Positions 5,468-31,357 of a stretch of DNA of 64,000 nucleotides are shown in pieces; position 1 is the first letter of the stretch; every line of letters begins with the position of its first letter. A model generated the notes under the pieces. The model saw nothing but the letters and a program-made list of their open reading frames with translations, was not told the DNA's origin and made no database searches. Source of the DNA: Eledone cirrhosa (Eukaryota); the NCBI GenBank assembly GCA_964016885.1, contig OZ024742.1, positions 321,656,001 through 321,720,000 of the forward strand, written 5' to 3'. A program made the position numbers and the translations under genes.

Positions 5468-6029
5468 ATGTATGTAATGTGTGTAATATATGATGTGTAG
5501 TTACGACGCTACTTTTGATGTGACCGCACATCTTCTATTCTGAGTGGCAGCCATGACAGATACGAGCATTCTCACTACAAACAAGAAAACCATCCCCACT
5601 GCCACCAGACGCCACCATCGCCGTCGTCATCACCATCAACATCAACATCGACATCGTTACTATATCACCTAAGCAATCACAATCGTCATCACGAACTACA
5701 GTACTGACCGCCATAAGTATCACCATGAACACCACAACCACCTCAAGCACCTAACACTGTTACTCACCACCACCACACACACACATCATCACCAAGACCA
5801 ATACCCTACCCCACCGTACCACACCCCACCCCACAATAGCTGCACAGTACCATAGCAATTACAAAGTCTCTAATACTGATAGAAAGTCGCCAACACAAAC
5901 GACCACCACCCTCATAGACAACACCGGGCCAAATACATCGTCACCACGAAAACAACGACGACGACGACCACCACCACCACCACCAACGCTAACACCATCA
6001 TCAGAAACACCACCAACCCCACCACCACC

Positions 6030-9000
6030 ACCATCAACACCACCACAAACGAACACTACCAGCAACCCCACCACCGCCACCATCAACACCACCACAAACG
6101 ACCACTACCAGCAACACCGCCACCGCCACCATCAACACCACCACAAACGACCACTACCACCAACCCCACCACCGCCACCATCAACACCACCACAAACGAC
6201 CACTACCACCAACCCCACCACCGCCACCATCATCACCACTACAAACGACCACTACCACCAACCCCACCACCGCCACCATCAACACCACCACAAACGACCA
6301 CTACCACCAACCCCGCCACCGCCACCATCAACACCACCACAAACGACCACTACCACCAAACCCACCACCGCCACCATCAACACCACCACAAACGACCACT
6401 ACCACCAACCCCGCCACCGCCACCATCAACACCACCACAAACGACAACTACCACCAACCCCACCACCGCCACCATCAACACCACCACAAACGACAACTAC
6501 CACCAACCCCACCACCGCCACCATCAACACCACCACAAACGACCACTACCAGCAACCCCGCCACCGCCACCATCAACACCACCACAAACGACCACTACCA
6601 CCAACCCCGCCACCGCCACCATCAACACCACCACAAACGACCACTACCACCAACCCCGCCACCGCCACCATCAACACCACCACAAACGACCACTACCACC
6701 AACCCCGCCACCGCCACCATCAACACCACCACAAACGACCACTACCAGCAACCCCGCCACCGCCACCATCAACACCACCACAAACGACCACTACCACCAA
6801 CCCCGCCACCGCCACCATCAACACCACCACAAACGACAACTACCACCAACCCCACCACCGCCACCATCAACACCACCACAAACGACAACTACCACCAACC
6901 CCACCACCGCCACCATCAACACCACCACAAACGACCACTACCAGCAACCCCGCCACCGCCACCATCAACACCACCACAAACGACCACTACCACCAACCCC
7001 ACCGCCACCATCAACACCACCACAAACGACCACTACCACCAACACCGCCACCGCCACCATCAACACCACCACAAACGACCACTACCACCAACACCGCCAC
7101 CGCCACCATCAACACCACCACAAACGACCACTACCAGCAACCCCGCCACCGCCACCATCAACACCACCACAAACGACCACTACCACCAACACCGCCACCG
7201 CCACCATCAACACCACCACAAACGACCACTACCACCAACCCCGCCACTGCCACCATCAACACCACCACAAACGACCACTACCACCAACACCGCCACCGCC
7301 ACCATCAACACCACCACAAACGACCACTACCACCAACACCGCCACCGCCACCATCAACACCACCACAAACGACCACTACCACCAACACCGCCACCGCCAC
7401 CATCAACACCACCACAAACGACCACTACCACCAACCCCGCCACCGCCACCAACAACACCACCACAAACGACCACTACCACCAACACCGCCACCGCCACCA
7501 TCAACACCACCACAAACGACCACTACCACCAACACCGCCACCGCCACCATCAACACCACCACAAACGACCACTACCACCAACACCGCCACCGCCACCATC
7601 AACACCACCACAAACGACCACTACCAACAACACCGCCACCGCCACCATCAACACCACCACAAACGACCACTACCACCAACCCCACCGCCACCATCAACAC
7701 CACCACAAACGACCACTACCAACAACACCGCCACCGCCACCATCAACACCACCACAAACGACCACTACCACCAACACCGCCACCGCCACCATCAACACCA
7801 CCACCAACATCACCACCACCAACACCGCCACCGCCACCATCAACACCACCACAAACGACCACTACCACCAACACCGCCACCGCCACCATCAACACCACCA
7901 CCAACATCACCACCACCAACACCGCCACCGCCACCATCAACACCACCACAAACGACCACTACCACCAACACCGCCACCGCCACCATCAACACCACCACAA
8001 ACGACCACTACCACCAACCCCACCACCGCCACCATCAACACCACCACAAACGACCACTACCACCAACCCCACCACCGCCACCATCAACACCACCACAAAC
8101 GACCACTACCACCAACCCCACCACCGCCACCATCAACACCACCACAAACGACCACTACCACCAACCCCACCACCGCCACCATCAACACCACCACAAACGA
8201 CCACTACCAGCAACCCCGCCACCGCCACCATCAACACCACCACAAACGACCACTACCAGCAACCCCGCCACCGCCACCATCAACACCACCACAAACGACC
8301 ACTACCACCAACCCCGCCGCCACCATCAACACCACCACAAACGACCACTACCACCAACCCCGCCACCGCCACCATCAACACCACCACAAACGACCACTAC
8401 CACCAACACCGCCACCGCCACCATCAACACCACCACAAACGACCACTACCACCAACCCCGCCGCCACCATCAACACCACCACAAACGACCACTACCAGCA
8501 ACCCCACCACCGCCACCATCAACACCACCACAAACGACCACTACCACCAACCCCGCCACCGCCACCATCAACACCACCACAAACGACCACTACCACCAAC
8601 ACCGCCACCGCCACCATCAACACCACCACAAACGACCACTACCACCAACCCCGCCACCGCCACCATCAACACCACCACAAACGACCACTACCATCAACAC
8701 CACCACAAACGACCACTACCACCAACCCCAACACCGCCACCATCAACACCACCACAAACGACCACTACCACCAACCCCGCCACCGCCACCATCAACACCA
8801 CCACAAACGACCACTACCACCAACCCCGCCACCGCCACCATCAACACCACCACAAACGACCACTACCAGCAACCCCGCCACCGCCACCATCAACACCACC
8901 ACAAACGACCACTACCACCAACCCCAACACCGCCACCATCAACACCACCACAAACGACCACTACCAGCAACCCCGCCACCGCCACCATCAACACCACCAC

Positions 9001-9095
9001 AAACGACCACTACCACCAACGCCGCCACCGCCACCATCAACACCACCACAAACGACCACTACCACCAACCCCAACTCCGCCACCGCCACCACCAA
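6030..9095. repeat. 49-bp C/A-rich minisatellite, ~60 copies
   Basis: Unit ACACCACCACAAACGACCACTACCACCAACCCCGCCACCGCCACCATCA; AAACG recurs at 6096 and 6145. Confidence 0.95.
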
Positions 9096-9272
9096 CAATA
9101 TCCTCGTAAACCACTCTCACCGCCGCCGCCATGACGTGAAGGTAATATCTCTCAAAATGAACTCCGCCCAACAATATTTTGGCAGTTGTAAGCTGTTTAT
9201 ACCGGGATGTGACGGATATAGTATACAAACATCTGTAGATATATATAAACAGATGAAAGGGAGAGGAATATT

Positions 9273-18306: not shown

Positions 18307-18344
18307 GAGAATAAACGTGGTGCGTGGTTGCTAATGGGTTACAT

Positions 18345-19260
18345 ATGAATAAAGTTAGTCCTTCATCAGTGATCTTCCAACCATCATTGGTATTTCATCG
18401 CTTTAAAGACCATATACGTCCGGTTGGTGCGAGCAACGGCTAAAAAAAGTCGTTGGGACACGTAAATAAAGGGGACACGAGTGTAAACAAACAAAGATGG
18501 TGAAGCAACGAAAAGTGAGGAAGAAGGAGTCAAGTCCCAAATTTCTATGAATTTAAATTCGGTGAAATCGTGAACGAGAGAGAATAAAGACCATCAAACC
18601 TGGTTGGAATGTGAGCAAGGAAGGAATTCCGTACAGGTCTAACGGGAGGAAGAAGGGATCTAGTCTGTGATATTTACACATATTTTTTTCCCCGCTGTGA
18701 CACGTCTATTTCGTTCTTACTGCTTCCTCTTTCTCTGTATCTTTACCCTCTCTAGCAGTCACTCTCTCTGTTAGTCTCTTCCTCACCCTTCACTCACTCA
18801 TTCTCTGTTACTACCTCTCCTCCTCCTCCTTCTTCCCGTTTGACCTGTGCGTAATTCTTTTCTTTCGCACCCTTGGTCTGGCAGGTCGCTTTTTTTCTCT
18901 CTCTCGTCTACGATTTCACAGAACTTACGTTCACCGAATTCACAGACTAGATCCCTTCTTCCTCCCGTTAGACCTGTACGGAATTCCTTCCCTGCTCACA
19001 TTCCAACCAGGTTTGATGGTCTTTATTCTCTCTCGTTCACGATTTCACCGAATTTAAATTCATAGAAATTTGGGACTTGACTCCTTCTTCCTCACTTTTC
19101 GTTGCTTCACCATCTTTGTTTGTTTACACTCGTGTCCCCTTTATTTACGTGTCCCAACGACTTTTTTTAGCCGTTGCTCGCACCAACCAGAGGTATATGG
19201 TCTTTAAAGCGATGAAATACCAATGATGGTTGGAAGATCACTGATGAAGGAGTAACTTTA

Positions 19261-19266
<6 letters not shown>
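18345..19266. repeat. Long inverted repeat (~325-bp arms, ~270-bp spacer) between (TA)n tracts
   Basis: 18345-18670 is the near-perfect reverse complement of 18940-19266. Confidence 0.9.
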
Positions 19267-19301
<35 letters not shown>

Positions 19302-19484
19302 CTCCTTACGTAGAGAACAAAACGTTGAATAATGCCGCTAATTTTAGTGGCAATTCGACATGTTTATAATATCCAGCTTTTATCAGCGACCTGATTTGCG
19401 TGTGTGTCACTTTAACGGCTTGACCGCATGCGTTGGGCAGGGAGCATAATATTTACTTGCTATACCTTATAGCGTGGAAATAGG

Positions 19485-19565
19485 GCTGTCTGAAGATTCA
19501 TTTCTTTCCATTGGAAATTCGTTGGATTTCCAATCTTTCGGAATGATGAAACCGTCGGTAACAGC
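19485..19565 (+). ncRNA. Type I hammerhead ribozyme, copy 1
   Basis: Stem I GCUGU/ACAGC; core CUGAAGA; stem II UCAUUUC/GGAAUGA with inner UUGGAAAUU/GAUUUCCAA; GAAACCG-U-CGGUA. Predicted cut after 19560. Confidence 0.85.
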
Positions 19566-19941
19566 ATCTGAACAGGTGATTATTTAATCATTTTTTAATT
19601 TATTTAGAAAATTGTTTAATAACCGTTTGTTTCGCTACTTTTATATTGTTCTGGTATCTCGAATTAGTGCCATTGAACCACATGTATTATAAACAACTTG
19701 AATATTTCTACAAGTACATTGTACCTGTTGAGGTATCCATCCACTTCTATAATTTATTCTCCTTACGTAGAGAACAAAACGTTGAATAATGCCGCTAATT
19801 TTAGTGGCAATTCGACATGTTTATAATATCCAGCTTTTATCAGCGACCTGATTTGCGTGTGTGTCACTTTAACGGCTTGACCGCATGCGTTGGGCAGGGA
19901 GCATAATATTTACTTGCTATACCTTATAGCGTGGAAATAGG

Positions 19942-20022
19942 GCTGTCTGAAGATTCATTTCTTTCCATTGGAAATTCGTTGGATTTCCAATCTTTCGGAA
20001 TGATGAAACCGTCGGTAACAGC
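19942..20022 (+). ncRNA. Type I hammerhead ribozyme, copy 2
   Basis: Same sequence as copy 1; predicted cut after 20017. Confidence 0.85.
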
Positions 20023-20398
20023 ATCTGAACAGGTGATTATTTAATCATTTTTTAATTTATTTAGAAAATTGTTTAATAACCGTTTGTTTCGCTACTTTTA
20101 TATTGTTCTGGTATCTCGAATTAGTGCCATTGAACCACATGTATTATAAACAACTTGAATATTTCTACAAGTACATTGTACCTGTTGAGGTATCCATCCA
20201 CTTCTATAATTTATTCTCCTTACGTAGAGAACAAAACGTTGAATAATGCCGCTAATTTTAGTGGCAATTCGACATGTTTATAATATCCAGCTTTTATCAG
20301 CGACCTGATTTGCGTGTGTGTCACTTTAACGGCTTGACCGCATGCGTTGGGCAGGGAGCATAATATTTACTTGCTATACCTTATAGCGTGGAAATAGG

Positions 20399-20479
20399 GC
20401 TGTCTGAAGATTCATTTCTTTCCATTGGAAATTCGTTGGATTTCCAATCTTTCGGAATGATGAAACCGTCGGTAACAGC
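20399..20479 (+). ncRNA. Type I hammerhead ribozyme, copy 3
   Basis: Same sequence as copy 1; predicted cut after 20474. Confidence 0.85.
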
Positions 20480-20551
20480 ATCTGAACAGGTGATTATTTA
20501 ATCATTTTTTAATTTATTTAGAAAATTGTTTAATAACCGTTTGTTTCGCTA

Positions 20552-20590
<39 letters not shown>

Positions 20591-20594
<4 letters not shown>

Positions 20595-21280
20595 AAGAAT
20601 TCATATCTAGTAACATATATATACATACAAATGCATATCGATGCTAGCAAATATATAGGTTTTGTCTTAATAACATTGTGGTTCAATGCATGGGGTTGTA
20701 GAACAATAATATAAGAGACGTAAAATAAGAAAATTATAAAATTAACTTACTTACTAAAATATCACTTCCAACTAATTAGTTTCTGGAATGGAGTAGATAC
20801 ATCTTCCGAAGAAGGTGTAGAGAAACATCCCCTCATCAGGAAAGTCAATTCTCATATAAGTTTCCAGGCAAAGCGAGGACACTGGAAGCTTATTAAAAAA
20901 TAAATCAGTGAATAGGAAATAGCAAAGCGTGGACTTAATTACTAGCCATTGAGAAAATCACTGCCTCTGTGTCCGTGGCAAATTCAAAAAGAATCGAACA
21001 CGTGACATCGAGGTCAATCGGTGGAAAGTGGGTTGTTAATAAGACAGCGGCCAGCCTACTACTGTAACAGCAGTCATGGCCAGTATTGCTCGACAAAAGA
21101 TTTGGAGATAATAATAAAGAATTTATATCTAGTAACATATATATACATACAGATGCATATCAATGCTAGCAAATATATAGGTTTTGTCTTAATAACATTG
21201 TGGTTCAATGCATGGGGTTGCAGAACAATAATATAAGAGACGTAAAATAAGAAAATTATAAAATTAACTTACTTACTAAA
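20591..21280 (-). mobile_element. Second retrozyme/pLTR-like element: 522-bp unit x ~1.3
   Basis: ~167-bp direct repeats at 20591-20758 and 21113-21280 with an HHR between them; flanked by (TA)n. Confidence 0.7.
20764..20845 (-). ncRNA. Type I hammerhead ribozyme with cUUCGg-capped stem II
   Basis: Minus strand: ACUUUC-CUGAUGA-GGGGAUG...CUUC-UUCG-GAAG...CAUUCCA-GAAAC-UAAUUA-GUU-GGAAGU. Confidence 0.75.
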
Positions 21281-21450
21281 TATATATATATCTATCTAAT
21301 ATAGAAATGGCTTCTACAGGAATGATTTCTCCCGAATGAAACAGTTCTAGTCCTGTAGAAGCCATTTCTATATTATATATTAAATATTTATACTCTGCTA
21401 TTGTTATGTATTGAGTACCTTACTTACTGTGGTTACCCCCGATTGAACCC

Positions 21451-22644: not shown

Positions 22645-25600
22645 GTAGTTTGGTGTGGTGTGGTGTGGTTGTGTGGTGTGGTGTGGTTGTGTGGTGTAGT
22701 GTGGTGTGGTGTGGTTGTGTAGTGTAGTGTGGTGTGGTTGTGTGGTGTAGTGTGGTGTGGTTGTGTGGTGTGGTGTGGTGTGGTGTGGTTGTGTGGTGTG
22801 GTGTGGTGTGGTGTGGTGTGGTTGTGTGGTGTAGTGTGGTGTGGTTGTGTGGTGTAGTGTGGTGTGGTTGTGTGGTGTGGTGTGGTGTGGTGTGGTTGTG
22901 TGGTGTAGTGTGGTGTGGTTGTGTGGTGTAGTGTGGTGTGGTTGTGTGGTGTAGTGTGGTGTGGTTGTGTGGTGTAGTGTGGTGTGGTGTGGTGTGGTTG
23001 TGTGGTGTAGTGTGGTGTGGTTGTGTGGTGTAGTGTGGTGTGGTGTGGTGTGGTTGTGTGGTGTAGTGTGGTGTGGTTGTGTGGTGTAGTGTGGTGTGGT
23101 GTGGTGTGGTTGTGTGGTGTGGTGTGGTGTGGTTATGTGGTGTAGTGTGGTGTGGTTGTGTGGTGTAGTGTGGTGTGGTTGTGTGGTGTGGTGTGGTGTG
23201 GTGTGGTGTGGTGTGGTTGTGTGGTGTAGTGTGGTGTGGTTGTGTGGTGTAGTGTGGTGTGGTGTGGTGTGGTTGTGTGGTGTAGTGTGGTGTGGTTGTG
23301 TGGTGTAGTGTGGTGTGGTGTGGTGTGGTTGTGTGGTGTAGTGTGGTGTGGTTGTGTGGTGTAGTGTGGTGTGGTGTGGTTGTGTGGTGTAGTGTGGTGT
23401 GGTTGTGTGGTGTAGTGTGGTGTGGTGTGGTGTGGTTGTGTGGTGTAGTGTGGTGTGGTTGTGTGGTGTGGTGTGGTGTGGTGTGGTTGTGTGGTGTGGT
23501 GTGGTGTGGTGTGGTTGTGTGGTGTAGTGTGGTGTGGTGTGGTTGTGTGGTGTAGTGTGGTGTGGTTGTGTGGTGTAGTGTGGTGTGGTGTGGTGTGGTG
23601 TGGTGTGGTATAGTGTGGTGTGGTTGTGTGGTGTAGTGTGGTGTGGTGTGGTGTGGTGTGGTTGTGTGGTGTAGTGTGGTGTAGTTTGGTGTGGTGTGGT
23701 GTGGTGTGGTTGTGTGGTGTGGTGTGGTGTGGTTGTGTGGTGTAGTGTGGTGTGGTGTGGTGTGGTGTGGTGTGGTGTGGTGTGGTGTGGTGTGGTTGTG
23801 TGGTGTAGTGTGGTGTGGTGTGGTGTGGTGTGGTGTGGTGTGGTGTGGTGTAGTGTGGTGTGGTTGTGTGGTGTAGTGTGGTGTGGTTGTGTGGTGTAGT
23901 GTGGTGTGGTGTGGTGTGGTTGTGTGGTGTAGTGTGGTGTGGTTGTGTGGTGTGGTGTGGTGTGGTGTGGTTGTGTGGTGTGGTGTGGTGTGGTGTGGTT
24001 GTGTGGTGTAGTGTGGTGTGGTTGTGTGGTGTAGTGTGGTGTGGTGTGGTGTGGTTGTGTGGTGTAGTGTGGTGTGGTTGTGTGGTGTAGTGTGGTGTGG
24101 TGTGGTGTGGTTGTGTGGTGTAGTGTGGTGTGGTTGTGTGGTGTAGTGTGGTGTGGTGTGGTTGTGTGGTGTAGTGTGGTGTGGTTGTGTGGTGTAGTGT
24201 GGTGTGGTGTGGTGTGGTGTGGTGTGGTATAGTGTGGTGTGGTTGTGTGGTGTAGTGTGGTGTGGTGTGGTGTGGTGTGGTTGTGTGGTGTAGTGTGGTG
24301 TAGTTTGGTGTGGTGTGGTGTGGTTGTGTGGTGTGGTGTGGTGTGGTTGTGTGGTGTAGTGTGGTGTGGTTGTGTGGTGTGGTGTGGTGTGGTGTGGTTG
24401 TGTGGTGTAGTGTGGTGTGGTTGTGTGGTGTAGTGTGGTGTGGTTGTGTGGTGTAGTGTGGTGTGGTTGTGTGGTGTAGTGTGGTGTGGTGTGGTGTGGT
24501 TGTGTGGTGTAGTGTGGTGTGGTTGTGTGGTGTAGTGTGGTGTGGTGTGGTGTGGTTGTGTGGTGTAGTGTGGTGTGGTTGTGTGGTGTAGTGTGGTGTG
24601 GTGTGGTGTGGTTGTGTGGTGTGGTGTGGTGTGGTTGTGTGGTGTAGTGTGGTGTGGTTGTGTGGTGTAGTGTGGTGTGGTTGTGTGGTGTGGTGTGGTG
24701 TGGTGTGGTGTGGTGTGGTTGTGTGGTGTAGTGTGGTGTGGTTGTGTGGTGTAGTGTGGTGTGGTGTGGTGTGGTTGTGTGGTGTAGTGTGGTGTGGTTG
24801 TGTGGTGTAGTGTGGTGTGGTGTGGTGTGGTTGTGTGGTGTAGTGTGGTGTGGTTGTGTGGTGTAGTGTGGTGTGGTGTGGTTGTGTGGTGTAGTGTGGT
24901 GTGGTTGTGTGGTGTAGTGTGGTGTGGTGTGGTGTGGTGTGGTGTGGTATAGTGTGGTGTGGTTGTGTGGTGTAGTGTGGTGTGGTTGTGTGGTGTAGTG
25001 TGGTGTGGTTGTGTGGTGTAGTGTGGTGTGGTTGTGTGGTGTAGTGTGGTGTGGTGTGGTGTGGTTGTGTGGTGTAGTGTGGTGTGGTTGTGTGGTGTAG
25101 TGTGGTGTGGTGTGGTGTGGTTGTGTGGTGTAGTGTGGTGTGGTTGTGTGGTGTAGTGTGGTGTGGTGTGGTGTGGTTGTGTGGTGTGGTGTGGTGTGGT
25201 TGTGTGGTGTAGTGTGGTGTGGTTGTGTGGTGTAGTGTGGTGTGGTTGTGTGGTGTGGTGTGGTGTGGTGTGGTGTGGTGTGGTTGTGTGGTGTAGTGTG
25301 GTGTGGTTGTGTGGTGTAGTGTGGTGTGGTGTGGTGTGGTTGTGTGGTGTAGTGTGGTGTGGTTGTGTGGTGTAGTGTGGTGTGGTGTGGTGTGGTTGTG
25401 TGTGGTGTAGTGTGGTGTGGTTGTGTGGTGTAGTGTGGTGTGGTGTGGTTGTGTGGTGTAGTGTGGTGTGGTTGTGTGGTGTAGTGTGGTGTGGTGTGGT
25501 GTGGTGTGGTGTGGTATAGTGTGGTGTGGTTGTGTGGTGTAGTGTGGTGTGGTGTGGTGTGGTGTGGTTGTGTGGTGTAGTGTGGTGTAGTTTGGTGTGG

Positions 25601-28498
25601 TGTGGTGTGGTGTGGTTGTGTGGTGTGGTGTGGTGTGGTTGTGTGGTGTAGTGTGGTGTGGTGTGGTGTGGTGTGGTGTGGTGTGGTGTGGTGTGGTGTG
25701 GTTGTGTGGTGTAGTGTGGTGTGGTGTGGTGTGGTGTGGTGTGGTGTGGTGTGGTGTAGTGTGGTGTGGTTGTGGTGGTGTGGTGTGGTGTGGGTGGTGT
25801 GTGTGGTGTGGTGTGGTGTGGTGTGGTTGTGTGGGGTGTGTGGGTGTGGTGTGGTGTGGTGTAGTGTGGTGTGGTTGTGTGGTGTAGTGTGGTTGTGGTT
25901 GTGTAGTGTAGTGTGGTGTGGGTTGTGTGGTGTGGTGTGGTATGGTTGTGTGGTGTAGTGTGGTGTGGTTGTGTGGTGTGTGTGGTGTGGTTGTGGTGTG
26001 GTTGTGTGGTGTTGTGTGGTGTGGTTGTGTGGTGTGGTGTGGTGTGGTGTGGTTGTGTGGTGTGGTGTGGTGTGGTTGTGTGGTGTGGTGTGGTTGTGTG
26101 GTGTAGTGTGGTGTGGGTTGTGTGGTGTGTGTGGTGTGGTTGTGTGGTGTGTGTGGTGTGGGGTGGTGTGGGTGTAGGTGTGGTGGTGGTTGTGTGGTGT
26201 GGTGTGGTGTGGTGTGGTGTGGTTGTGTGGTGTAGTGTGGTGTGGTTGTGTGGTGTAGTGTGGTGTGGTGTGGTGTGGGTTGTGTGGTGTAGTGTGGTGT
26301 GGTTGTGTGGTTGTGTGGTGTGGTTGGTGGTGTAGTGTGGTGTGGTGTGGTGTGGTGTGGTGTGGGGTGTGGGTAGTGTGGTGTGGTTGTGTGGTGTAGT
26401 GTGGTGTGGTGTGTGGTGTGGGTGTGGTGTGGTTGTGTGGTGTAGGGTTGGTGTGGGTGGTGTGGTGTGGTGTGGTGTGGTGTGGTTGTGTGGTGTAGTG
26501 TGGTGTGGTTGTGTGGTGTGGTGTGGTGTGGTTGTGTGGTGTAGTGTGGTGTGGTTGTGTGGTGTGGTGTGGTGTGGTGTGGTGTGGTTGTGTGGTGTGG
26601 TGTGGTGTGGTTGTGTGGTGTAGTGTGGTGTGGTTGTGTGGTGTAGTGTGGTGTGGTGTGGTGTGGTGTGGTTGTGTGGTGTAGTGTGGTGTGGTTGTGT
26701 GGTGTGGTGTGGTGTGGTTGTGTGGTGTAGTGTGGTGTGGTTGTGTGGTGTGGTGTGGTGTGGTGTGGTGTGGTTGTGTGGTGTGGTGTGGTGTGGTTGT
26801 GTGGTGTAGTGTGGTGTGGTTGTGTGGTGTAGTGTGGTGTGGTTGTGTGGTGTGGTGTGGTTGTGTGGTGTAGTGTGGTGTGGTTGTGTGGTGTGGTGTG
26901 GTGTGGTGTGGTGTGGTTGTGTGGTGTGGTGTGGTGTGGTTGTGTGGTGTAGTGTGGTGTGGTTGTGTGGTGTGGTGTGGTGTGGTGTGGTGTGGTTGTG
27001 TGGTGTAGTGTGGTGTGGTTGTGTGGTGTGGTGTGGTGTGGTTGTGTGGTGTAGTGTGGTGTGGTTGTGTGGTGTGGTGTGGTGTGGTGTGGTGTGGTTG
27101 TGTGGTGTGGTGTGGTGTGGTTGTGTGGTGTAGTGTGGTGTGGTTGTGTGGTGTGGTGTGGTGTGGTTGTGTGGTGTGGTGTGGTGTGGTGTGGTGTGGT
27201 GTGGTTGTGTGGTGTAGTGTGGTGTGGTTGTGTGGTGTGGTGTGGTGTGGTTGTGTGGTGTAGTGTGGTGTGGTTGTGTGGTGTAGTGTGGTGTGGTTGT
27301 GTGGTGTAGTGTGGTGTGGTTGTGTGGTGTGGTGTGGTGTGGTGTGGTTGTGTGGTGTAGTATGGTGTGGTTGTGTGGTGTGGTGTGGTGTGGTTGTGTG
27401 GTGTAGTGTGGTGTGGTTGTGTGGTGTAGTGTGGTGTGGTTGTGTGGTGTAGTGTGGTGTGGTTGTGTGGTGTGGTGTGGTGTGGTGTAGTGTGGTTGTG
27501 TGGTGTAGTGTGGTGTGGTTGTGTGGTGTAGTGTGGTGCGGTTGTGTTGTGTGGTGTGGTGTGGTGCGGTTGTGTGGTGTGGTGTGGTGCGGTTGTGTGG
27601 TGTGGTGTGGTGTGGTTGTGTGGTGTAGTGTGGTGTGGTTGTGTGGTGTAGTGTGGTGTGGTTGTGTGGTGTAGTGTGGTGCGGTTGTGTTGTGTGGTGT
27701 GGTGTGGTGCGGTTGTGTGGTGTGGTGTGGTGCGGTTGTGTGGTGTGGTGTGGTGTGGTTGTGTGGTGTGGTGCGGTGTGGTTGTGTGGTGTAGTGTGGT
27801 GCGGTTGTGTTGTGTGGTGTGGTGTGGTGCGGTTGTGTGGTGTGGTGTGGTGCGGTTGTGTGGTGTGGTGTGGTGTGGTTGTGTGGTGTGGTGCGGTTGT
27901 GTAGTGTGGTGCGGTTGTGTGGTGTAGTGTGGTGCGGTTGTGTTGTGTGGTGTGGTGCGGTTGTGTGGTGTGGTGTGGTGCGGTTGTGTGGTGTGGTGTG
28001 GTGCGGTGGTGTAGTGTGGTGCGGTTGTGTGGTGTGGTGTGGTGTGGTGTGGTGCGGTTGTGTGGTGTGGTGCGGTTGTGTGGTGTGGTGTGGTGCGGTT
28101 GTGTGGTGTGGTGTGGTGCGGTTGTGTGGTGTGGTGTGGTGCGATTGTGTGGTGTGGTGTGGTGCGGTTGTGTGGTGTGGTGTGGTGTGGTTGTGTGGTG
28201 TGGTGCGGTTGTGTAGTGTGGTGCGGTTGTGTGGTGTAGTGTGGTGCGGTTGTGTTGTGTGGTGTGGTGCGGTTGTGTGGTGTGGTGTGGTGCGGTTGTG
28301 TGGTGTGGTGTGGTGCGGTGGTGTAGTGTGGTGCGGTTGTGTGGTGTGGTGTGGTGTGGTGTGGTGCGGTTGTGTGGTGTGGTGCGGTTGTGTGGTGTGG
28401 TGTGGTGCGGTTGTGTGGTGTGGTGTGGTGCGGTTGTGTGGTGTGGTGTGGTGCGATTGTGTGGTGTGGTGTGGTGCGGTTGTGTGGTGTGGTGTGGT
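22645..28498. repeat. (GTGTG)n-derived satellite with 18/23-bp higher-order units
   Basis: GTGTG pentamers interspersed with GTT, GTA and GCG variants; explains the 1793-aa HTTP ORF. Confidence 0.95.
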
Positions 28499-31023: not shown

Positions 31024-31357
31024 ATTATTAAAAATGTAAGCTATCGCCGTATTTTGACTAAAGAAATTAGAGAAATTATTTAGCCTGATAGTAGGGTTAA
31101 GAACCCTCGAAGAAATGGAAAAAGATGAGTATTGACGTACATGGGAGTCGAACTATTTACACCAACACATCACCATAATGTGTTGGTGTAAATAGTAGCA
31201 CAGTGGTCCGGATAACCAAAGATGTGGGTTCGACTCCCATGTACGTCAATACTCATCTTTTTGTATTTCTCCGAGGGTTCTTAACCCCACTATCAGGCTA
31301 AATAATTTCTCTAATTTCTTTAGTCAAAATACGGCGATAGCTTACATTTTTAATAAT
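31024..31357. mobile_element. Fold-back element with a tRNA-like Pol III unit at its centre
   Basis: ~130-bp inverted arms; A-box-like TGGTGTAAATAG (31184), B-box GGTTCGACTCC (31227), T-stem GTGGG/CCCAT, T5 at 31258-31262. Confidence 0.65.

What the first reader, a model, noticed from the sequence alone, without database searches (positions are those of the whole stretch)
20591..21280. Second, apparently unrelated HHR unit (522 nt x 1.3) whose 5' end sits near the ribozyme cut register
It abuts the 457-bp array on the opposite strand. The HHR has CUGAUGA, a cUUCGg tetraloop on an extended stem II, a palindromic ACUAAUUAGU stem/loop III and a GUU site. The 167-bp terminal redundancy starts about 10 nt downstream of the equivalent cut position, suggesting the template RNA 5' end was made by self-cleavage. 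The first stem II pair is G.A, which may be a decay mutation.
Basis: partly seen in the sequence, partly recalled or inferred. Interest (0 to 1): 0.75.

Follow-up and report, generated by a model that had tools for sequence, protein, structure and literature searches.

The report
Hammerhead retrozyme with Penelope-type insertion footprint
This is one copy of a very abundant non-coding repeat that carries a conserved hammerhead ribozyme fold and has two fixed ends in TA runs, so it is likely copied around the genome by a Penelope-like retrotransposon, and most copies run straight through the predicted self-cleavage site instead of starting at it.

Summary
A 522-nt non-coding unit plus a 170-nt repeat (20589-21280, minus strand) holds a type I hammerhead. 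Its stem III/cut 18-mer occurs 12,272 times in the genome, and the stems covary across subfamilies down to 73% identity. The C·A mismatch under stem II is a family trait; only the window's G is private.

Copies have two fixed 3' ends in (TA)n, +61 and +181 after the cut. Of 65 two-armed insertions, 62 pair one of each. This is the two-start "tail" signature of Penelope-like elements (PLEs), with a 120-nt tail.

The self-cleavage reading is only weakly supported. Of 220 approaches, 29 stop within +1..+29 (1.7× background), none at +1/+2, and 87% read through. The neighbouring 457-nt array is a distant relative, not unrelated.

One feature is unexplained. A triplet in loop II (window 20818-20820) is hypervariable. 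It differs between the 5'-most unit and the next in 21 of 44 arms, but in 0 of 10 inner pairs.

Verdict: a non-LTR retrozyme (non-autonomous PLE), a known kind, with unusually clear mechanistic footprints. The helper PLE, cleavage and RNA are not shown.

The parts
20589..21280 (-). Whole insertion: single arm, unit positions +12 -> 522 -> +181 (numbered from the cut), 1.3 units of a 522-nt non-coding repeat, subfamily A
   Evidence: GC 35%; only ATG ORF of 40 aa or more is 67 aa
21111..21280 (-). 5' copy of the redundant segment (+12..+181)
20764..20845 (-). Type I hammerhead: stem I 20845-20840/20769-20764, core 20839-20833, lower stem II 20831-20826/20790-20785, stem III palindrome 20780-20771, predicted cut 20770|20769 (GUU)
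   Evidence: covariation
20832..20832 (-). Position 10.1: G here (private), C in the family; faces A11.1 at 20784
20818..20820 (-). Hypervariable loop II triplet (unit 472-474; CTA allele in this copy), at the end of a conserved GAGAA/UUCUC complementarity (20853-20849 with 20824-20820)
20709..20709 (-). Short fixed 3' end of the family (+61), inferred second RT start; internal in this copy
   Evidence: loose ends into TA runs at 20709 in contigs of two public runs
20589..20591 (-). Long fixed 3' end (+181), inferred first RT start, joined to (TA)n
21199..21227 (-). Tail motif TGTTCTG...CATTGAACCACA shared with the 457-nt and 483-nt relatives (second copy 20677-20705)
20556..20591 (.). (TA)n target shared tail-to-tail with the 457-nt array; two separate insertions (inferred: 3' ends face each other, whereas arms of one insertion join at 5' ends)
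19291..20560 (+). Neighbouring 457-nt hammerhead array (cores at 19490, 19947, 20404), distant relative; its 3' end (about +81 from its cut) aligns with the +61 short end

Best explanation
The unit is a non-coding, hammerhead-bearing repeat with two fixed 3' ends in TA runs, and it is likely a non-autonomous Penelope-like retroelement (non-LTR retrozyme) copied by the reverse transcriptase and GIY-YIG endonuclease of an autonomous PLE. Shown by sequence: fixed ends at +61 and +181, variable 5' ends, head-to-head two-armed insertions with one end of each kind, tandem arrays without an ORF, and a conserved, covarying ribozyme. Inferred: the helper nicks (TA)n and primes reverse transcription at two internal sites of the RNA, one per DNA strand. 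Both cDNAs run towards the RNA 5' end on a template that is continuous across the hammerhead site (uncleaved multimer or ligated circle), stop at variable points, and are joined to each other or to the target by 1-4-nt microhomology. The window copy is a one-armed product that went once round and stopped at +12. A minority of stops just 3' of the cut may come from cleaved templates. A second hot zone at -57..-85 may mark the transcript start. Cleavage itself is predicted to be slow or dimer-assisted (C·A at the base of stem II, GUU site, palindromic stem III).
For: 251 exact +181/TA junctions and 303 exact +61/TA junctions, 0 in the reversed controls. 62 of 65 simple two-armed insertions are one +181 arm plus one +61 arm; 29 of 29 long-armed ones have both arms of the same subfamily. 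The short arm is not contained in the long arm in 36 of 62, so fold-back copying does not explain them. The same two ends sit at homologous positions in subfamily C, 73% identical with a 558-nt unit. Two internal RT starts bounding the genomic tail were shown in vitro for an anole PLE, using uncleaved RNA (PMC11167929). Tandem/inverted structure and (TA)n targeting are PLE traits (PMC8557442). Ribozyme: 132 of 132 cells paired in 11 variants, and one stem II pair occurs in all four Watson-Crick forms; N7 is the only core base that differs between A and B. Young PLEs with open frames up to 800 aa are abundant in the genome (about 61,000 first-look candidates). One family has the Hydra-clade motifs RWK, DKT and CxCx5C and two fixed TA ends about 107 nt apart.
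Against: No helper was identified: the 3' regions of the PLE families examined do not match a profile of the retrozyme's 3' region. The 120-nt tail is far longer than the 30-40 nt described. Cleavage, transcription and circles are untested. The hammerhead fold is not the predicted MFE (median gap 1-5 kcal/mol). Linear versus circular template is unresolved. The pair counts rest on 11 related sequences that I chose and on a structure read from the window copy.
Confidence: 0.85

Rival explanations
1. One reading: the template RNA's 5' end is normally made by hammerhead self-cleavage, so copies begin at or just after the cut.
For: 29 ends in +1..+29 vs 16.7 expected (rate ratio 1.7, p=0.004, uncorrected); step across the cut 29 vs 9 (p=0.002). 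The window copy starts at +12.
Against: 191 of 220 approaches read through; none of 215 ends is at +1 or +2; windows 438-466, 375-403 and 142-170 are as hot. Among two-armed junctions alone the step is p=0.06. The window junction shares ATAT with the TA flank. RT pausing at stem I would give the same excess. About 12 of the 29 ends are excess, so roughly a 40% chance that this copy's end is cut-related.
Confidence: 0.12
2. The template is a monomeric circular RNA (cut and ligated at GUU) that RT reads round repeatedly, as proposed for retrozymes. This is a variant of the best explanation.
For: Arrays of up to about 10 units. Units of one arm share lineage markers (6 of 345 comparisons discordant) and so do the two arms (14 of 316). 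Inner units are identical at the hot triplet in 10 of 10 pairs. Circles are shown for other animal retrozymes (PMC7229834).
Against: The stop rate is not constant with distance (5.4/kb at 522-783 nt vs 2.3-2.7/kb before). The 5'-most unit differs from the next at the triplet in 21 of 44 arms, mostly CTA->variant (9 vs 1), which one circle cannot give without a template switch. No scar at the cut site (neutral if ligation is clean).
Confidence: 0.3
3. These are only truncated terminal repeats (pLTRs) of an autonomous PLE.
For: Same geometry as PLE ends; PLE ORF fragments lie near the unit in 9 of the first 120 loci.
Against: Among 90 loci picked by 3' end alone, arms that pass the cut run on into the 522-nt unit, up to 3.6 units. 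Nearby ORFs have their own 3' ends and are mostly separated by TA runs. None of 30 sampled stem III hits had a PLE ORF leading into the hammerhead without a TA run between.
Confidence: 0.07
4. A DNA-level satellite or minisatellite with a chance or dead hammerhead.
For: Not detected by Rfam; fold energy no better than shuffles; 8 of 9 Xenopus retrozyme dimers did not cleave in vitro (preprint 10.64898/2026.07.22.740005).
Against: Dispersed, 5'-truncated copies with fixed 3' ends; compensatory changes in stem II.
Confidence: 0.03

Closest known systems
Non-LTR retrozymes of animals (Cervera & de la Peña 2020, PMC7229834; Li, Clavereau & Pollet 2026 preprint 10.64898/2026.07.22.740005)
   Same: Non-coding tandem units with a type I hammerhead, low GC, palindromic helix III, thousands of copies, co-existing PLEs. 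A weak stem II base has a precedent (U·U in axolotl HHR_Amex2).
   Different: 522 nt is above the 150-450 bp of the 2020 paper but inside the 51-972 bp of the preprint. Stem II is very long, with an internal loop. PLE mobilisation there is argued from co-occurrence and pLTR homology; here it shows in insertion anatomy, with no pLTR homology found. RNA and circles are not shown here.
Endonuclease-positive Penelope-like elements; Poseidon of Anolis (Frangieh et al. 2024, PMC11167929); Hydra clade (Craig et al. 2021, PMC8557442)
   Same: Two fixed 3' ends bounding a tail downstream of a hammerhead, inverted 5'-truncated arm, partial tandems, AT-rich/(TA)n targets, read-through of the uncleaved ribozyme.
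   Different: No ORF. Tail of 120 nt vs 30-40 nt described; Hydra-type PLEs in this genome have tails of about 95-112 nt.
Minimal hammerheads in PLE pLTRs (Cervera & de la Peña 2014, PMC4209133)
   Same: Type I topology, palindromic helix III that suits dimeric cleavage.
   Different: Here helix I is 6 bp, helix III can form 3-4 bp, and stem II spans about 49 nt; not a minimal motif.

Membership tests
Type I hammerhead ribozyme | Core CUGANGA / GAAA / UH joined by three helices, helix I open | tested here: met
Type I hammerhead ribozyme | Covariation of stems with a conserved core | tested here: met
   Stem II: 2 of 6 pairs change on both sides, 132/132 cells paired; stems I and III vary on one side or not at all; N7 U/C
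Type I hammerhead ribozyme | Watson-Crick 10.1-11.1 pair (canonical form; recalled) | tested here: not met
   C·A in all subfamilies, G·A in the window; a mismatch here is known in an active variant
Type I hammerhead ribozyme | Self-cleavage | not testable with these tools
   needs an in vitro assay
Non-LTR retrozyme | Tandem non-coding units, each with a type I HHR | tested here: met
Non-LTR retrozyme | GC below 50%, multi-copy | tested here: met
   35% GC; 12,272 motif copies
Non-LTR retrozyme | No LTR, PBS or PPT | not tested
   No PBS/PPT search was made; insertion anatomy is not LTR-like
Non-LTR retrozyme | Expressed as linear and circular monomers | not testable with these tools
   needs RNA data
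Non-LTR retrozyme | Target-site duplication longer than 4 bp when present | tested here: inconclusive
   Ends lie in (TA)n, where a duplication cannot be read
PLE-mobilised element | Tail present at one end only; inverted 5'-truncated arm | tested here: met
   62 of 65
PLE-mobilised element | Sequence homology to the pLTR of an autonomous PLE | tested here: inconclusive
   No match in the families examined; many PLE families not sampled
Autonomous PLE | RT + GIY-YIG ORF | tested here: not met

The most novel reading that the evidence does not exclude
The loop II triplet is a natural switch. The first unit of a source transcript keeps CTA (needed for transcription or full ribozyme activity, or carrying an RNA mark that RT misreads), while downstream units are selected or driven to variant triplets that let RT pass the hammerhead. 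The genome would then record a division of labour between the leader ribozyme and the inner ribozymes of a retrozyme. That would be a direct handle on the open question of what hammerheads do in the PLE cycle.
Probability: 0.3. Interest if true: 0.72.

Novelty: new variant of a known kind. Interest (0 to 1): 0.47.

Why it matters
The papers read treat PLE mobilisation of animal retrozymes as a hypothesis and the role of the hammerhead in PLEs as unclear. This family gives hundreds of young insertions in which the two-start PLE signature sits on a non-coding retrozyme. They show that RT mostly crosses the ribozyme site, in line with the one in vitro PLE study. The 522-nt RNA with defined starts, and a panel of natural triplet alleles, is a ready substrate for cleavage and TPRT tests. 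The element class itself is known, so the value is mechanistic rather than categorical.

Tried and rejected
Rfam, gathering and E<=10: no hammerhead hit. Pfam on two neighbouring PLE ORF pieces: nothing meaningful.

RNA evidence: no RNA holder listed. Four runs of unrecorded kind were laid. Three from one sample hold the family, may be the source of the assembly and are not independent. The fourth gave two low-depth contigs and is not used.

5' ends: my first impression of a strong pile-up near the cut came from score-ranked hits (L001-L030) and from alignments split at the cut. It shrank to 1.7× in pattern-sampled and left-truncated data, so L001-L030 were left out of the stop-rate counts.

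Fold-back origin of inverted arms: rejected. A scar at the GUU junction: none.

Triplet: independent RT error at every pass (my note 3) is not supported, since inner pairs are 0 of 10 discordant. Post-insertion DNA mutation is unlikely, since discordance does not track other differences (5 of 16 vs 10 of 24). Fold energies do not separate the alleles. Distance-to-end did not differ significantly between discordant and concordant arms (p=0.10).

Helper search: the L062-type PLE, a related one at L026 and three Hydra-like families gave no 3' sequence match. Two direct PLE-retrozyme junctions (L055, L120) are too complex to read as helper evidence.

A plus-strand GAAAC...GUC look-alike opposite stem II is absent from subfamilies B and C and was rejected. 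One search used a misregistered structure and was replaced.

Full report
1. Observation. The window lies in a 3.0-Gb, microsatellite-rich genome. On the minus strand, 21280-20589 is a 522-nt unit plus a 170-nt repeat at 98% identity. It has 35% GC and one 67-aa ATG frame as its only ORF of 40 aa or more (not followed up). It holds a type I hammerhead with the predicted cut at 20770|20769. A structural scan gave 4 hits in the window and 0 in 30 shuffles. Rfam found no hammerhead, and the MFE is another fold with z = -0.25. Unit positions below count from the cut (+1 = 20769). Hammerhead numbering, the free N7 position and the canonical 10.1-11.1 pair are recalled.

2. Family. The unit gave 2,314 first-look candidates, and the 18-mer over stem III and the cut has 12,272 exact matches, 0 in the control. 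Subfamilies A (window) and B differ at 32 of 522 positions. Subfamily C is 558 nt and 73% identical, with -22..+61 at 87-95%. Further variants appear. In 11 chosen variants all 132 cells of stems I-III pair, one stem II pair occurs as G-C, C-G, U-A and A-U, and another as U-A and G-C. These sequences are related, so the shuffle control is not a probability. N7 is the only core base that differs between A and B. Position 10.1 is C opposite A in 97 of 99 A and 88 of 88 B segments and in all other subfamilies aligned. The window's G is private, but the mismatch is a family trait. A U·U mismatch at this place is reported in an axolotl hammerhead that cleaves weakly as a monomer and better as a dimer (PMC7229834).

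3. Ends. 3' ends are fixed in (TA)n at +181 (251 exact junctions) and +61 (303). From 180 loci (L031-L120, L151-L180, L211-L270; duplicates and segments under 92% dropped), 62 of 65 simple two-armed insertions are one +181 arm and one +61 arm joined head to head. Most junctions have 1-4 nt of overlap. The other 3 are +181/+181, and two of those are duplicates of one locus. Both arms are of one subfamily in 29 of 29 cases. The short arm is not contained in the long one in 36 of 62, so each arm is a separate copying event. Subfamily C ends at the homologous +80 and +199-202. This matches the two internal RT starts that bound the PLE tail in vitro (PMC11167929) and the tandem/inverted, one-sided-tail, (TA)n pattern of PLEs (PMC8557442). 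The tail here is 120 nt, against 30-40 nt described.

4. Test of the self-cleavage idea. In 219 arms (215 ends, entry points left-truncated, the two query copies excluded), 29 of 220 approaches stop in +1..+29 against 16.7 expected (ratio 1.7, p=0.004), and 9 stop in -29..-1 (step p=0.002). None is at +1 or +2. Windows 438-466 (27 ends), 375-403 and 142-170 are as hot or hotter. The step is p=0.06 for two-armed junctions and p=0.003 for the rest, where TA microhomology can bias positions. The window junction shares ATAT with its flank. So most templates were continuous across the site, as in the anole PLE, where uncleaved RNA was the main substrate. A cleaved minority, or RT pausing at stem I, explains the excess.

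5. Relation to the 457-nt array. Whole-unit similarity is marginal (2 of 200 shuffles). The regions after the cut align clearly (score 85, 0 of 2000 shuffles; control segments 47-65), and the array's 3' end falls on the +61 position. That region was chosen after I saw the whole-unit match. The motif TGTTCTG...CATTGAACCACA occurs 6,300 times (control 0) in at least three spacer types, and further hammerhead units carry it. The two neighbours are distant relatives that inserted separately, tail to tail, in one TA run (inferred).

6. Helper. The genome is rich in young PLEs. One type has Hydra-clade motifs, open frames up to 800 aa, about 61,000 candidates and two TA ends about 107 nt apart. Two related families show about 95 and 112 nt. 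Another PLE has ends about 55 nt apart. None matches the retrozyme's 3' profile. Hydra-type PLEs are the best candidates on geometry only.

7. Unexplained triplet. Position 473 (window 20819) shows all four bases in A and B. It differs between neighbouring units of one arm in 17 of 56 comparisons (background 1.4%) and between arms in 10 of 44. Other polymorphic sites differ in 6 of 345 and 14 of 316. For the triplet 472-474, the 5'-most pair differs in 21 of 44 arms and inner pairs in 0 of 10 (p=0.004). CTA is found in 25 of 36 hammerheads within 45 nt of an arm's 5' end, against 66 of 203 elsewhere (p=6e-5; pattern-sampled only, 13 of 21 vs 38 of 120, p=0.013). All 8 arrays with three or more hammerheads have identical non-CTA inner units. 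The triplet ends a GAGAA/UUCUC complementarity kept in all subfamilies, without covariation. This pairing could be a pseudoknot or an inhibitory fold. These tests were found by exploration and are not corrected for multiple testing, and score-ranked loci are included in the larger set. The likeliest reading is a linear source transcript starting near -85 whose leader unit keeps CTA while inner units carry variants that favour read-through; an RT-misread RNA mark is the alternative.

8. Comparison and novelty. It meets the sequence criteria of a non-LTR retrozyme and works like a non-autonomous PLE; cleavage and RNA are untested. Papers seen: preprint 10.64898/2026.07.22.740005, parts 1-3 of 5; PMC11167929, parts 1-2 of 4; PMC7229834, parts 2-4 of 6; PMC8557442, passages and section 11; PMC4209133, part 1 of 4; PMC2377424, abstract only (internal promoter of Penelope). 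No supplements were read, and they may hold similar retrozyme end data. Seven searches listed no paper whose title or abstract describes two fixed RT-start ends or such a triplet in retrozymes. Most listed papers were not opened, and subscription journals are not covered. Earlier scan notes held nothing on this genome or sequence.

9. Verdict. Interest 0.47.

Noticed in passing
window 21290-21380: Short inverted-repeat element with the 3' half of a hammerhead (GAAAC...GUC) and a truncated core, both ends in TA; looks like a tiny two-armed remnant of another hammerhead family. Similar sequence flanks L020.
   Followed up: no
window 18340-19270: Inverted repeat with 331-nt arms at 98%, both outer ends in TA runs; probably another two-armed PLE-type insertion.
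   Followed up: no
window 31177-31248: Weak tRNA match (33.8 bits); a similar sequence interrupts the unit in L030, suggesting a tRNA-derived SINE.
   Followed up: no
L307, L046, L361-L420: Very abundant young Hydra-type PLEs (RWK, DKT, CxCx5C motifs in the L307 family) with two fixed TA ends; in the L307 type the hammerhead core halves lie about 90 nt apart and lack a canonical stem I.
   Followed up: partly
L062:1685-2850; L026: Second PLE type with C-terminal GIY-YIG, a short hammerhead-like motif in the 3' region and two ends about 55 nt apart.
   Followed up: partly
L055:2022-2260; L120:855-1373: Direct junctions, without TA, between an inverted retrozyme arm ending at +205-207 and the endonuclease region of the L062-type PLE; possible template switches.
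   Followed up: partly
L047:484-1526: Subfamily C arm joined directly to a subfamily B arm in the same orientation; possible switch between two different retrozyme RNAs.
   Followed up: no
L009, L013, L034, L065, L144, L243: Further non-coding hammerhead units (one of about 483 nt) with long stem II; most show the shared tail motif. A superfamily in this genome.
   Followed up: partly
L007, L021, L073, L089, L090: Several other hammerhead families with short stem II, typical of PLE terminal repeats.
   Followed up: no
window 22651-28498 and 5967-9097: Long simple-sequence arrays (TGGTG-type, 5.8 kb; 49-nt ACC-rich unit, 3 kb).
   Followed up: no
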